Below, in pieces: positions 2,946 through 55,157 of a DNA stretch of 64,000 bases; within the stretch, counting starts at the first letter, position 1, and each line of letters opens with the position of its first letter. Both the position numbers and the translations under genes were made by a program. This stretch comes from Mustelus asterias (taxonomy: Eukaryota). Where the stretch lies: the NCBI RefSeq assembly GCF_964213995.1, contig NC_135830.1:4712001-4776000 (forward strand), given 5' to 3'. The notes beneath the pieces were generated by a model that was given only the letters and a program-made list of their open reading frames with translations, searched no databases and was not told the origin of the DNA.

Positions 2946-3316
2946 TCATTGAGAATAATTGGAAATGTTCACAAAACACGATTTACCGCTGGATTTATTA
3001 ACCGTTCTGTTGATGATCTTCAAAGGGATGGCTTCATGTCCCACCACACAGGAATAAGAAGTGCTGCTGTCCCACTCCTCTGCTGCAATGGACAACAGGC
3101 TGTACATGAAGAATGAGCGATTGCCATTCTCCGCCACCACCTCGGTGTTCTTGTAGTTCTCAGGATTCAGCGGCGTGTCATCGACGGTCCATTTGACGAA
3201 GATCTCTCTGGGAGAGAAACCTCTCACTAAGCAGCTGAGGGAGACGAATCTCTGAGCGGAGACTTCTTCTGCCGAGGGCAGGAGGACAGAGACGTACGGT
3301 TTCAGCGGATTTGGAT
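2946..3316 (-). CDS. IGHM: IgM heavy chain CH4 exon plus short secretory tailpiece ([13 protein letters not shown])
   Basis: [35 protein letters not shown]...[25 protein letters not shown]; acceptor GCAG at 3320-3317; internal G|GTAAA membrane-form donor at 2987/2986; TGA at 2948-2946. Confidence 0.95.
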
Positions 3317-4767: not shown

Positions 4768-5076
4768 CTGTTTCCTTGTAGATGGATTTTCTCAAAGGAG
4801 TCGGCAGATCCTCGTGGCTCACCAAGCAGTCAAACACAGCTCCACTCAGCCAAGCTTGTGTCGAGATGCTTAAGTGGCTGCCCACGCTTTCTGGATCCTC
4901 TCCAAGCCGGACTGCAATCTCTGACGTCAAAGGCTTCGTTTCTTGGCTCCAGGACACCTTGACTCCATAAGGAGCATTAGCCACGATGCAGGTTAAGGTC
5001 ACGATCGCCTCCAGTAAAACCTGCTCTATTGTCGGAGGCAGCAGAGTGATTATGGGATCGCTGCACGTAGAATCAT
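4768..5076 (-). CDS. IGHM: IgM heavy chain CH3 exon
   Basis: [19 protein letters not shown]...W...[15 protein letters not shown]; acceptor ACAG, donor GTGAGC; 309 nt. Confidence 0.95.
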
Positions 5077-8393: not shown

Positions 8394-8705
8394 CTTGAGA
8401 TCTGCTGATGTTACGATTTTGAGTGAGCCCTTGATGAGTGACCTGGCAGGTATAGACCGCTTTTCTGAACCATTCCCCAGCGGGGACTGTGAGCCGGCTG
8501 CTCGCCGAGAAGTTCCCGTTCACGTTAAAGGCGGGGGAGGTTACAATTCCTGAATCTATGGGTTGTCCATTCTTCAGCCACTTCACCGTCATTGACTTTG
8601 GACAAAAATCAACGATGGAACAGACGAGGGTTGCAAGTCTGCTGCTTGTGATCTCTTCACTGGAACTCAACGTGAGGATTACAGTTGGATAATAGATCAC
8701 ACGAT
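8394..8705 (-). CDS. IGHM: IgM heavy chain CH2 exon
   Basis: [15 protein letters not shown]...LVCSIVDF...WLKNG...YTCQVTH; acceptor GAAG, donor GTAAGA; 312 nt. Confidence 0.95.
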
Positions 8706-9888: not shown

Positions 9889-10188
9889 CTGGCATTTCCT
9901 TTTTCCAGGCCGACTCACTGCGTCGCACCTCGCAGTAAATTTTGCTGCTTCCTATATCAGACTCTTTTATGGTTAACTGGCTGCTCAGCGTGTGGGATCC
10001 CTTGTTGTTTAACACTGATGGGTACGTCCTCAATCCAGTGGTGATCGCCACTTGATTTTTCTTCCAGACAAGGCTAGTGATTTCTGGGAAATAGTCCATT
10101 GCCAAACAGCCGTAGATCATGGTACCAGCTGCGTTTGTTTGTTCACTGGAGGAGAACAGTCCATAGAGGGAGGGCGGAGACGGTGAGG
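9889..10188 (-). CDS. IGHM: IgM heavy chain CH1 exon
   Basis: [17 protein letters not shown]...[10 protein letters not shown]...WKK...IYCEVRR, typical of shark Cmu1; AG acceptor 10190-10189, donor GTTAGT; 300 nt, phase 1. Confidence 0.95.
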
Positions 10189-10229
10189 CTGCGAGAACAA
10201 AAAATCAATTGCACAGGTTAGACACTGTT

Positions 10230-16222: not shown

Positions 16223-16594
16223 CTGCAGTGACTGTCACTGCGGTTCCTGGTCCCCAGAAGTCGACGAAATTCGTCGCAGGTAATGATGTCTGCCATGCAC
16301 AGTAATAGATGGCGGTGTCTTCGCTCTTCAGGTTATTCATATCCAAAGTGAATATATTGGTTGAAAGCTCTTTGGACGCAACGAATCTATTCTGAATCCC
16401 TGGGGCGTACTTGTTGTTGGAGGAAGAAAGATAGAAAACCAACCACTCCAGCTCCTTTCCGGGAACGAGTCGGACCCAGTACATGTAAGCGTGAGAAAGA
16501 GGGAAGACGCCGGTTTTACAGGTCAGTCTCAGTGATCCTCCGGGTCGCCCGGTCGCTGCCTCCGGCTGAGTGAACACAACCTGCGTCTGGACAC
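16223..16594 (-). CDS. IGHV: Germline-joined IgH VDJ exon (VH + CDR3 [14 protein letters not shown] + [13 protein letters not shown])
   Basis: TTACAG acceptor; SLRLTC...WVR...LEW...EDTAIYYC runs directly into WGPGT with no intervening RSS; donor GTAAGC at 16222-16217; 372 nt in frame. Confidence 0.96.
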
Positions 16595-16720: not shown

Positions 16721-16766
16721 CGGATAAGAAAGTCAGCAACAAACTGAGAGAAATCGCCGAGCTCAT
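16721..16766 (-). CDS. IgH leader exon (MSSAISLSLLLTFLS-G; in-frame upstream ATG at 16778 adds MTRR)
   Basis: ATG at 16766-16764, hydrophobic signal peptide, phase-1 donor GTGAGT at 16720-16715, 126-nt intron to the V exon. Confidence 0.9.
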
Positions 16767-16853
16767 CCTTCTTGTCATTTGGAGGAAATGGTTTTGTCAA
16801 AAACTCAGTGAACAAACCAGCTCCCGGACTGTTGGATTCCCGTCCCAGTGAAC

Positions 16854-42679: not shown

Positions 42680-43527
42680 TTGGACCAACTAGAAAAATGG
42701 GCTGAAAAATGGCAAATGGAATTTAACGCAGACAAGTGTGAGATATTGCACTTTGGAAGGACAAACCAAAGAAGAACGTAGGATGGTAGGACTCTGAAGA
42801 GTGCAGTTGAACAGAGGGATCTGGGAATACAGGTACAGAATTCCCTAAAAGTGACGTCACAGGTGGATAGGGTCGTAAAGAGTGCCTTTGGTACATTGGC
42901 CTTTATAAATCGGAGTATCGAGTATAAAAGTTGGAGTGTTATGGTAAGGTTATATAAGGCATTGGTGAGGCCGAATTTGGAGTATTGTGTACAGTTTTGG
43001 TCACCTAGTTACAGGAAGGATGTAAATAAGATTGAAAGAGTGCAGAGAAGGTTCACAAGGATGTTGCCGGGACTTGAGAAGCTGAGTTACAGAGAGAGAT
43101 TGAATAGGTTGGGACGTTATTCCCTTGAGCGTAGAAGATTGAGGGGAGATTTGATAGAGGTGTATAAGATTTTGATGGGTATAGATAGAGTGAATGCAAG
43201 CAGGCTTTTTCTGCTGAGGCGAGGGGAGAAAAAAACCCGAGGGCATGGGTTAAGGGTGAAAGGAGAAAAGTTTAAAGGGAATATTAGGGGGGGCTTCTTC
43301 ACGCAGAGAGTGGTGGGAGTGTGGAATGAGCTGCCAGATAAAGTGGTAAATGCGGGGTCACTTTTAACATTTAAGAAAAACTTGGACGGGTTCATGGATG
43401 AGAGGGGTGTGGAGGGATATGGTCCAAGTGCAGGTCAGTGGGACTAGGCATAAAATGGTTCGGCACAGACAAGAAGGGCCAAAAGGCCTGTTTCTGAGCT
43501 GTAATTTTCTATGGTTCTATGGTTCTA
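42680..43527 (+). mobile_element. CR1 LINE 3' fragment, near-identical to 54311-55157
   Basis: ORF 42851-43447 (RPNLEYCVQFWSP...RGDLIEVYK...VWNELP); (TTCTATGG) tail. Confidence 0.92.
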
Positions 43528-44559: not shown

Positions 44560-44598
44560 AGTTTTTGTACGAGTGTTAAGGCTCGATGTAACGTGGTG
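44560..44598 (-). other. 23-spacer recombination signal sequence of the TCR V
   Basis: Heptamer CACCACG (non-consensus, CAC kept) + exactly 23 nt + nonamer ACAAAAACT. Confidence 0.75.
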
Positions 44599-44906
44599 CT
44601 TCATCGCCGCGCAGTAATACACGGCTGAGTCAGAAATCTGAGTGTCTGTGATGTTCAAAAGGATGTTTGTGTTCATTTTATCCTGTACAGCAGAAAACCG
44701 CTTTCCAAATGTAGGCGCGTTCTCTTCATTACCAGCAGTATGTCTGACCAGCATGTACTGATGGCCCTGTCCCGAGTACTGTACGTACCAATATAGGTAA
44801 GCTGCTGTGTATGTGGTGGGGTAGTGACAGGACAACATCAGGGGACTCCCTTCACTCACTGCTACTACTGTGGGCTTTTGGAAAAGTTTATCCAGCTGGC
44901 TCTGCG
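44599..44906 (-). CDS. T-cell receptor alpha/delta-type V gene segment, unrearranged (functional or pseudo)
   Basis: Pyrimidine tract + CCAG acceptor; open frame QSQLDKLFQKPTVVAVSEGSPLMLSC...YLYWYVQY...RFSA...SDSAVYYCAAM; followed by an RSS. Confidence 0.85.
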
Positions 44907-52338: not shown

Positions 52339-52537
52339 AATTTCTGCTGTTTTGAATTGGACAAGGTACTGGTTCTGTAAATTTATTTTCCGTGTACACG
52401 GCGGGATTGCTTCATATGGGCTTTGGGTTGAGAACCTGAACACATTCTAACGCCATAGCAGGCTCACAAGTAAATCAAAACATTTTCAATGGCTGACTCT
52501 GCTTGCAGACACGAATTGAGAGGACCTCATTCCTTCG

Positions 52538-55157
52538 ACAGAGGCCCTATGGGTGGAGCTGAGAAACAGGAAAGGTATGACCACATCAATGGGCTTGTAT
52601 TATAGACCACCCAATAGTCAGCGAGAATTGGAGGAGCAAATCAGCGGAGAGATAGCAGACAACTGCAAGAAACACAAAGTTGTGATAGTAGGAGATTTTA
52701 ATTTTCCACATATAGATTGGGACTCGCATACTGTTAAAGGTTTAGACGGGGTAGAGTTTGTAAAATGTGTTCAGGAGAATTTTCTACATCAGTATATAGA
52801 GGTGCCAACTAGAGAGGATGCGATATTGGATCTCCTATTGGGAAATGAGTTAGGGCAGGTGATGGATGTGAGTGTGAGGGAACACTTTGGATCCAGTGAT
52901 CATAATGCCATTAGTTTCAACCTGATCGTGGAGAAGGATAGACCTGGTCCTCGGGTTGAAGTTCTGAACTGGAAAAAGGCCAAATTTGATGAAATGAGAA
53001 GGGATCTGGGAAGTGTGGATTGGCACAGGCTGTTCTCTGGTAAGGATGTAAATGGAAAGTGGGAGGCCTTCAAAGGAGAAATTTTGAGAGTGCAGAGTTT
53101 GTATGTTCCTGTCAGGATTAAAGGCAAAGTAAATAGGAATAAGGAACCTTGGTTCTCGAGGGAGATTGTAACACTGATTAAGAGGAAGAGAGAGTTGTAT
53201 GAAATGTACAGGCAGCAAGGAACAGATCAGACGCTCGAGGAGTATAAAAAGTGCAAGAAGCTACTTAAGAGGGAAATCAGGAGGGCAAAAAGAAGACATG
53301 AGGTTGCTTTGGCAGACAGAGTGAAGGAAAATCCAAAGAGCTTCTATAGGTATGTTAGGAGCAAAAGGATAATGAGGGATAAAATTGGTCCTCTTGAAGA
53401 CCAGAGTGGTAGACTGTGTATGGAACCACAAGAGATAGGGGAGATACTAAATGGGTTTTTTGCATCCGTATTTACTGAGGAAACCGGCAAGGAGTCCACG
53501 GAAATAGGTCAAACTGGTAGGGAGGACACGGAACCATTACAGATTAAAGGGGAGGAGGTGCTTGCTGTCTTGAGGCAAATCAGAGTGGATAAATCCCCAG
53601 GACCGGACAGGGTATTCCCACGGACCTTGAGGGAAGCTAGTGTTGAACTTGCAGGGGCCCTGGCAGACATATTTAAAATGTCAGTATTCACGGGGGAGGT
53701 GCCGGATGATTGGAGGATGGCTCATGTTGTTCCGTTGTTTAAAAAAGGTTCCAAAAGAAATCCCGGAAATTATCGGCCAGTAAGTTTGACGTCGGTGGTG
53801 GGCAAGTTATTGGAAGGTGTGATAAGGGATAGGATCTACAAATATTTGGATAGACAGGGACTTATTAGGGAGAGTCAACATGGCTTTGTGCGTGGTAGGT
53901 CATGTTTGACCAATCTATTAGAGCTTGTCGAGGAGGTTACCAGGAAAGTGGATGAAGGGAAGGCGGTGGATGTTGTCTACCTGGATTTCAGCAAGACCTT
54001 TGACAAGGTCCCTCATCGGAGGTTAGTTAGGAAGGTTCAGTCGCTGGGTATACATGGGGAGGTAGTAAATTGGATAAGACACTGGCTCAATGGAAGAAGC
54101 CAGAGAGTGGTTGTGGAGGATTGCTTCTCTGAGTGGAGGCCTGTGACTAGTGGTGTGCCGCACGGATCGGTGTTGGGTCCATTGTTGTTTGTCATCTATA
54201 TCAATGATCTGGATGATAATGTGGTAAATTGGATCAGCAAGTTTGCTGATGATACAAAGATTGGAGGTGTAGTGGACAGTGAGGAAGGTTTTCAAAGCTT
54301 GCAGAGGGATTTGGACCAACCAGAAAAATGGGCTGAAAATGGCAAACGGAATTTAACGCAGACAAGTGTGAGATATTGCACTTTGGAAGGACAAACCAAA
54401 GAAGAACGTACAGGGTAAATGGTAGGACTCTGAAGAGTGCAGTTGAACAGAGGGATCTGGGAATACAGGTACAGAATTCCCTAAAAGCGACGTCACAGGT
54501 GGATAGGGTCGTAAAGAGTGCCTTTGGTACATTGGCCTTTATAAATCGGAGTATCGAGTATAAAAGTTGGAGTGTTATGGTAAGGTTATATAAGGCATTG
54601 GTGAGGCCGAATTTGGAATATTGTGTATAGTTTTGGTCACCTAGTTACAGGAAGGATGTAAATACGATTGAAAGAGTGCAGGGAAGGTTCACAAGAATGT
54701 TGCCGGGACTTGAGAAGCTGAGTTACAGAGAGAGATTGAATAGGTTGGGACTTTATTCCCTGGAGCGTAGAAGATTGAGGGGAGATTTGATAGAGGTGTA
54801 TAAGATTTTGATGGGTATAGATAGAGTGAATGCAAGCAGGCTTTTTCCGCTGAGGCTAGGGGAGAAAAAAACCAGAGGGCATGGTTGAAGGGTGAAAGGA
54901 GAAAAGTTTAAAGGGAATATTAGCGGGGGCTTCTTCACGCAGAGAATGGTGGGAGTGTGGAATGAGCTGCCGGATAAAGTGGTAAATGCGGGGTCACTTT
55001 TAACATTTAAGAAAAACTTGGACGGGTTCATGGATGAGATGGGTGTGGAGGGATATGGTCCAAGTGCAGGTCAGTGGGACTAGGCATAAAATGGTTCGGC
55101 ACAGACAAGAAGGGCCAAAAGGCCTGTTTCTGAGCTGTTTTTCTATGCTTCTATGCT
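52538..55157 (+). mobile_element. CR1 LINE, young 5'-truncated copy (partial APE endonuclease + RT)
   Basis: 621-aa ORF with YRPP, GDFNFP, SDH, KSPGPD, NYRPVSL, QHGF, FADD; frameshift ~54340, stops at 54628 and 54886; (TTCTATGC) tail. Confidence 0.93.

What the first reader, a model, noticed from the sequence alone, without database searches (positions are those of the whole stretch)
10145..10147. CH1 lacks the light-chain-bonding cysteine
Seen: [10 protein letters not shown] with codon AGT. I recall shark Cmu1 as ...SCEQ/SCQQ, where this Cys forms the H-L disulfide. CH1 here keeps only its two core Cys. Inference: light chain is bound non-covalently or not at all.
Basis: partly seen in the sequence, partly recalled or inferred. 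Interest (0 to 1): 0.75.

Follow-up and report, generated by a model that had tools for sequence, protein, structure and literature searches.

The report
Pre-joined shark IgM with rewired cysteines
This shark antibody heavy-chain gene has a fixed, inherited binding site and has lost the cysteine that normally ties it to the light chain and the one needed for pentamers, so it likely makes a single-unit antibody whose light chain is held without the usual bond.

Summary
Codon 10147-10145 (minus strand) is AGT (Ser) where 68 of 71 IgM CH1 loci read in this genome have TGT. The two Ser loci are this gene and its near-identical copy; one locus is truncated. It is not an assembly error: contigs of four other organisms keep AGT. 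The gene is a germline-joined VDJ IgM with an open 573-aa frame. Two relatives have spliced VDJ-CH1-CH2 contigs. Its secretory tail is 7 aa short and lacks the polymerisation Cys; extra Cys sit in CH2 and the tail. 'No light chain at all' is unlikely (about 0.10): CH1 is kept and spliced in, its CL-facing residues are mostly conserved, and VH has one of four camelid hallmark changes. Nurse shark IgM1gj lacks the same Cys but carries two other CH1 Cys; trees reject orthology (p 0.015, 0.029). Best reading: a separately evolved, invariant, probably monomeric IgM, with light chain bound non-covalently (0.45) or through the CH2 Cys (0.30). Cys loss alone has precedent (IgM1gj, squamate IgM, IgA2m(1)). 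I found no description of this gene, but the key shark papers were not readable.

The parts
16721..16778 (-). Leader exon (ATG at 16778), phase-1 GT donor
16223..16594 (-). Germline-joined, in-frame VDJ exon; 12-residue CDR3 between Cys-Ala and Trp-Gly; no RSS found inside
   Evidence: Pfam V-set E 7.5e-15; same joined region in spliced contigs of organisms B and E
16467..16469 (-). FR2 Leu where 18 of 18 paralog V and 14 of 14 database V have Gln (Kabat 39; numbering recalled)
16452..16454 (-). FR2 Glu where those 32 V have Gly (IMGT 49 / Kabat 44), one of four camelid hallmark sites
   Evidence: hallmark definition from PMC12591594 passages
9889..10188 (-). CH1 (C-mu-1) exon, two core Cys only
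   Evidence: model pLDDT 81.6, top fold hits are Fab heavy chains
10145..10147 (-). AGT (Ser) at the AB-loop site of the light-chain-bonding Cys: the finding
8394..8705 (-). CH2 exon (AAG acceptor), spliced in; lacks the D-strand Cys found in 28 of 49 CH2 loci read
8602..8604 (-). Non-canonical Cys278 in the CH2 BC loop (D-F-C-P); candidate alternative light-chain partner
   Evidence: 3 of 49 loci (this gene, its copy, pseudogene L004)
4768..5076 (-). CH3 exon; N-terminal Cys352 (5063-5065), inferred heavy-heavy bond
   Evidence: shared with paralogs; role inferred
2946..3316 (-). CH4 plus secretory tail and stop
2946..2987 (-). Secretory tail 7 aa shorter than canonical; penultimate Cys replaced by Ser (TCT, 2952-2954); new Cys564 (TGT, 2976-2978)
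   Evidence: same length in organism B (X10 record 1)

Best explanation
This is a germline-joined shark IgM heavy-chain gene that has lost the CH1 cysteine and the tail polymerisation cysteine; it likely makes an invariant monomeric H2L2 antibody whose light chain is likely held non-covalently through the CH1-CL and VH-VL faces. Shown: the open frame, the Cys changes, conservation of Ser in four other organisms, and splicing of VDJ-CH1-CH2-CH3 in relatives. Inferred: CH1 still needs CL to fold and leave the ER; the heavy chains are joined through Cys352 and perhaps Cys564; the light-chain terminal Cys is capped or bonded light-to-light as in IgA2m(1); no J chain or pentamer forms. By analogy with IgM1gj it would be an innate-like antibody of fixed specificity. 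Light-chain pairing of either kind: about 0.75.
For: Intact 573-aa frame, all introns GT-AG. TM exon 208 nt beyond the window end. Spliced contigs join VDJ to CH1 to CH2 at the exact exon ends in X10 (organism B) and X14 (organism E), and CH3 to CH4 in both. Of 7 distinct differences listed in the CH1 stretch 10030-10200, 5 are synonymous (expected share 0.28, P 0.022). At 11 CL-facing positions (mapped through the IgG1 alignment; interface list recalled) 9 carry the commonest shark residue and 2 are bulkier hydrophobics, Phe11 and Ile24. No Cys between the CH1 core and the CH2 core. CH1 blocks secretion without light chain (PMC6167435 passage). Precedents: squamate IgM lacks this Cys and is presumed non-covalent (PMC4279169 passage); IgA2m(1) has L-L instead of H-L bonds (PMC6963396 passage). 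The tail Cys is critical for multimers (PMC8692893 passage); 44 of 49 tails read keep it.
Against: No protein data at all. CH2 Cys278 offers another partner. No Cys-less light chain was found: 55 of 59 distinct CL exons read encode the terminal Cys, and the other 4 loci carry stops or frameshifts. IgM1gj, the closest precedent, carries two other CH1 Cys and is considered H2L2 (PMC10331284 text; covalent linkage recalled from the Rumfelt 2001 abstract, not seen). VH has two unusual interface changes. The second copy has a broken V exon. The selection test rests on 7 changes; up to 3 further differences per contig near the ends were not listed. IgM1gj forms dimers and keeps its tail Cys, so 'monomer' here is inferred from sequence only.
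Confidence: 0.45

Rival explanations
1. The H-L bond has moved: the light-chain terminal Cys bonds to Cys278 in the CH2 BC loop, which should face the CH1-CH2 junction where CL ends. The antibody is a covalent H2L2 with Fab arms tied to C-mu-2.
For: Cys278 is the only spare Cys near the junction and is absent from the other shark CH2 proteins found. All intact light chains read keep their Cys. IgM1gj shows loss of this Cys with gain of others. Human IgA uses two different heavy-chain Cys for this bond. Geometry is argued from recalled Ig C1 topology, not from a model.
Against: The same TGT occurs in pseudogene L004, which keeps the CH1 Cys, and paralog L035 has CGT, so the Cys may be simple CpG decay. 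Its conservation in organisms B-E could not be read (table was cut). No structure of the junction could be built.
Confidence: 0.3
2. Heavy-chain-only antibody: the chain folds and is secreted without light chain although CH1 is kept.
For: No H-L Cys; VH Gln39 to Leu and Gly44 to Glu against 32 of 32 other V. The genome holds a decayed germline-joined VDJ-CH3-CH4 gene with FR2 changes and no detectable CH1 or CH2, so such forms do arise here.
Against: CH1 is retained and spliced in; CL-facing residues are conserved; Val37, Leu45, Trp47 and Trp103 are kept, only 1 of 4 hallmark sites changed; camelid heavy-chain antibodies skip CH1.
Confidence: 0.1
3. A transcribed but decaying cluster: the Cys losses and tail deletion are drift, and no useful antibody is made.
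For: Many IgM clusters here are pseudogenes. Copy 2 has a 155-bp inverted insertion in V. The CH1 end branch is fairly long, 0.31.
Against: Frame open over six exons; orthologous contigs without gaps, and spliced forms, in relatives up to about 4-8% diverged per exon; excess of synonymous changes; the short tail is shared with organism B.
Confidence: 0.12
4. Assembly or sequencing error (true codon TGT).
For: AGT and TGT differ by one base.
Against: AGT in both assembled copies, in another sample and in four other organisms.
Confidence: 0.01

Closest known systems
Nurse shark IgM1gj (AAK07642.1, P0015)
   Same: Germline-joined VDJ on a mu-type constant region; the canonical CH1 Cys is absent too (Asn).
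   Different: IgM1gj lacks C-mu-2, has two extra CH1 Cys and a canonical tail. This gene keeps and splices CH2, has no extra CH1 Cys, a short tail without the penultimate Cys and a different CDR3. CH1 identity 50/98; one clade rejected, p-AU 0.0145 and 0.0285.
Conventional shark IgM (horn shark P23088, Triakis BAJ20180.1, Scyliorhinus torazame scyTo_0014240)
   Same: Leader-V-four C-sec-TM layout; CH1 68/98 to 70/99 identical to horn shark and catshark, CH4 101/118 to Triakis.
   Different: They keep the CH1 Cys and, where the secreted form is in hand, the tail Cys; this genome's paralog V segments mostly end in an RSS.
Squamate IgM and human IgA2m(1)
   Same: CH1 kept, H-L disulfide absent, light chain held non-covalently (presumed for squamates).
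   Different: Those are rearranging isotypes in other lineages; here it is one invariant cluster among about a hundred that keep the Cys.
Heavy-chain-only antibodies (camelid HCAb, shark IgNAR)
   Same: No H-L bond; one FR2 hallmark change (Gly to Glu).
   Different: Camelid HCAb skips CH1 and usually changes several FR2 sites; here CH1 is spliced in and three of four sites are conventional.

Membership tests
Shark IgM heavy-chain cluster gene | Leader, V, four C1-set domains, secretory tail, TM exon in one cluster | tested here: met
Shark IgM heavy-chain cluster gene | Constant domains of mu type by sequence | tested here: met
Canonical shark IgM | AB-loop Cys in CH1 for the H-L bond | tested here: not met
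Canonical shark IgM | Penultimate tail Cys for J chain and pentamer | tested here: not met
Canonical shark IgM | RSS-flanked V, D, J that rearrange somatically | tested here: not met
   single joined VDJ exon
IgM1gj | Germline-joined VDJ | tested here: met
IgM1gj | C-mu-2 absent | tested here: not met
   CH2 exon present and spliced in
IgM1gj | Orthology (one clade, shared VDJ junction) | tested here: not met
   p-AU 0.0145 (CH1+CH3+CH4), 0.0285 (CH1); CDR3 differs in length and sequence; trees otherwise poorly resolved
IgM1gj | Two additional Cys in CH1 | tested here: not met
IgM1gj | Neonatal expression bias and a germline-joined sigma-2 partner | not testable with these tools
   only contigs with coded samples were available
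Heavy-chain-only antibody | CH1 deleted or skipped | tested here: not met
   VDJ-CH1 and CH1-CH2 joins in X10 and X14; a rare skipped form is not excluded
Heavy-chain-only antibody | FR2 hallmark changes at IMGT 42, 49, 50, 52 | tested here: inconclusive
   V-E-L-W: 1 of 4, plus Gln39 to Leu
Heavy-chain-only antibody | Secretion without light chain | not testable with these tools
   needs protein work

The most novel reading that the evidence does not exclude
A second, independently evolved invariant IgM subclass in this shark lineage, converging on IgM1gj by losing the same CH1 cysteine, hard-wired as a monomer, with its light chain stapled to C-mu-2 instead of C-mu-1: an H-L linkage I know from no other antibody (recall, not a search result).
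Probability: 0.25. Interest if true: 0.72.

Novelty: new variant of a known kind. Interest (0 to 1): 0.5.

Why it matters
Germline-joined shark heavy chains were long of doubtful function; IgM1gj is the main expressed example. Here a separate germline-joined IgM is conserved and spliced in relatives, and has lost the same CH1 Cys. Two such losses would suggest that invariant antibodies favour an altered H-L linkage, though a catshark germline-joined IgM keeps the Cys. The tail change gives a gene-level route to monomeric IgM, whereas shark 7S and 19S IgM are reported to come from the same loci (PMC5192425 passage). The gene is a ready natural test of how CH1-CL pairing works without its bond, and a possible early step towards heavy-chain-only forms.

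Tried and rejected
Assembly error: rejected. Orthology with IgM1gj: rejected by two AU tests, with the caveat of long branches and exon exchange between clusters; the CH2 tree puts this gene with majority-type paralogs, the CH1 tree with horn-shark-type ones, all weakly. CH2 skipping as in IgM1gj, suspected from the AAG acceptor: not seen, CH2 is spliced in. No database protein of this gene or an ortholog turned up. No RNA holder of the own organism was listed; not evidence either way. Contig depth was not used to rank expression. The CH1 model and fold search only confirm a C1 fold. Complex prediction was not run: CH1-CL and VH-VL are textbook pairs that pass by likeness, and the spliced CH1-CH2 junction could not be submitted. 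Earlier scan findings: none in three look-ups. Ten paper searches showed no description of this gene in the listings. Rumfelt 2001, Rumfelt 2004, Castro 2013, Zhu 2012, Hsu 2016, Matz 2021 and Anumukonda 2022 were not held; Smith 2012, Crouch 2013 and Honda 2010 were not tried. No supplements were read. Novelty is therefore provisional.

Full report
Observation. Window 10145-10147 reads ACT, so AGT (Ser) on the minus strand, in ...[10 protein letters not shown].... The exon runs 10188-9889 with AG and GT borders and encodes only the two core Cys. Pfam calls it C1-set; a model from a five-row alignment has pLDDT 81.6 and its top fold hits are Fab heavy chains. A search of G000 gave 98 mu-CH1 matches. 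I read 71: 68 Cys, all printed codons TGT, 2 Ser, 1 truncated. The two Ser loci are this gene and an inverted copy on the same contig. Among 38 database mu-type CH1 proteins of cartilaginous fish, 37 have an AB-loop Cys. HMMER aligns the site to the AB loop of IgG CH1, where IgM and IgG2/4 carry the H-L Cys (recalled).

It is not an error. A contig from another sample of the same organism and study matches 10026-10225 exactly. Contigs of organisms B, C, D and E, from four studies, cover 10147 without a difference. The B and E contigs run on into this gene's J segment (loose ends), so they are orthologs and not paralogs. All are assembled contigs, not raw reads.

The gene. Leader 16778-16721, a germline-joined VDJ 16594-16223, CH1, CH2 8705-8394, CH3 5076-4768, CH4 with secretory tail 3316-2946; the spliced frame is open for 573 aa. 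A TM exon lies 208 nt beyond the window. The majority CH1 paralogs group with Triakis IgM, so the genome is probably a carcharhiniform shark. X14 record 9 joins VDJ, CH1, CH2 and CH3 at the exon ends; X10 record 4 joins VDJ, CH1 and CH2; both show the CH3-CH4 joint. The RNA status of these runs is a guess on record, but the joints fall on GT-AG introns. Of 7 distinct listed differences in the 5' half of CH1, 5 are synonymous against an expected share of 0.28 (P 0.022): modest evidence of selection.

Other Cys changes. The tail is 7 aa shorter than the canonical one, has Ser for the penultimate Cys and a new Cys near its start. Of 49 tails read, 44 keep the Cys; the exceptions are this gene, its copy and three other altered tails. 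An organism B contig spans the tail with a net difference of 2 bases, so the short tail is shared. That Cys is described as critical for multimers in all three shark isotypes (PMC8692893, passages). CH2 has Cys278 in its BC loop, seen in 3 of 49 loci: this gene, its copy and pseudogene L004, which keeps the CH1 Cys; L035 has CGT there, one CpG step away. VH has Leu for Gln39 and Glu for Gly44 against 32 of 32 other V, and keeps Val37, Leu45, Trp47 and Trp103.

Light chains. 55 of 59 distinct CL exons read encode the terminal Cys; the other four loci have stops or frameshifts. So any partner brings a Cys that CH1 cannot take. At 11 CL-facing CH1 positions (list recalled, mapped through) 9 carry the commonest shark residue; Phe11 and Ile24 are rarer and bulkier.

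Mechanism. CH1 is retained, spliced in and keeps its CL face, and CH1 holds unpaired heavy chains on BiP (PMC6167435, passage; shown for mammals, extended to sharks by inference). Light-chain pairing is therefore likely (about 0.75). With no Cys in CH1 or the junction, the simplest state is non-covalent pairing, the light-chain Cys capped or bonded L-L (0.45). Precedents are squamate IgM (PMC4279169, passage) and IgA2m(1) (PMC6963396, passage). The rival is a bond to Cys278 (0.30): by recalled C1 topology the BC loop of CH2 faces the end of CH1 and CL. Against it, the Cys may be CpG decay, and I could not read it in orthologs. Heavy-chain-only (0.10) fits the two VH changes but not the kept CH1. 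Decay (0.12) fits the broken V of copy 2 but not the conservation. Monomer secretion follows from the tail and is untested.

Comparison. Nurse shark IgM1gj (AAK07642.1) is the closest known case. It is germline-joined and also lacks this Cys (Asn), but has two other CH1 Cys, no C-mu-2 and a canonical tail. It is considered an H2L2 tetramer (PMC10331284, whole text read, citing Rumfelt 2001) and prefers a germline-joined sigma-2 light chain (PMC4279169 and PMC5192425, passages). The window gene is not IgM1gj: CH2 is present, CDR3 differs, CH1 is 50/98 identical, and one clade is rejected (p-AU 0.0145 on CH1+CH3+CH4, 18 rows; 0.0285 on CH1, 28 rows). Those trees are poorly resolved, IgM1gj is a long branch, and domains of this gene group with different paralogs, so independence is likely, not certain. 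A catshark germline-joined IgM keeps the Cys, so the link between germline joining and Cys loss is two cases out of three.

Verdict. The Cys loss alone is not new. The combination of germline-joined VDJ, four C domains, no spare CH1 Cys and a non-polymerising tail, conserved and spliced in relatives, did not appear in ten paper searches (listings, plus passages of the papers cited), but the primary shark papers were not readable, so it may have been described. New variant of a known kind; interest 0.5.

Noticed in passing
G000:C71:17395-17405 kb (L272, L256) and C221 (L277): A second germline-joined VDJ followed by CH3 and CH4 with no detectable CH1 or CH2; FR2 reads ...EQRLELL (Arg at 44, Leu at 47). 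A stop in FR1 makes it a pseudogene here. It looks like a decayed heavy-chain-only IgM; related CH3-CH4 copies lie on C112 and C138.
   Followed up: partly
G000:C71:10996001-11026000 (L031, L032, L036): Inverted second copy of the gene, 98.5-99.8% identical over about 19 kb, with a 155-bp inverted copy of the leader region replacing 16 bp of the V exon. Several other C71 loci also occur as inverted pairs, so both haplotypes may be in one scaffold.
   Followed up: partly
L036:7470-8010 (L217) versus L033: The TCR-type V pseudogene downstream of copy 2 is joined at its coding end to a D segment, followed by J segments; it is unrearranged beside the window copy, and the same D has its 12-RSS in L216, L218, L219. 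L221 holds another V-D joint. Somatic or germline origin unknown. D-J cassettes of this type recur on many IgM contigs.
   Followed up: partly
window 44598-44906, minus strand: TCR-alpha/delta-type V exon with an open frame and a 23-spacer RSS with a poor heptamer; fits the reported IgH-TCR linkage (PMC12227049 section 6).
   Followed up: no
P0013 and P0033: Two catshark species share one apparently germline-joined VDJ (near-identical CDR3 in genome-derived models) that keeps the CH1 Cys, so germline joining does not always go with Cys loss.
   Followed up: no
L188-L215 and other CH2 loci: The D-strand Cys of C-mu-2 toggles among clusters: Cys 28, Trp 8, Tyr 8, Phe 5 of 49.
   Followed up: no
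L039/L040, L048, L053/L054: V segments that run into D-like sequence without an RSS: partly joined (VD) clusters.
   Followed up: no
window 25565-27556, 42782-43444, 52520-54885: Fragments of a DNA transposase-like frame and of LINE reverse-transcriptase frames; ordinary repeats (family names not tested).
   Followed up: no
P0024, P0087, P0094: Shark IgM fragments labelled as Aeromonas or Salmonella hypothetical proteins, probably contamination in bacterial assemblies.
   Followed up: no
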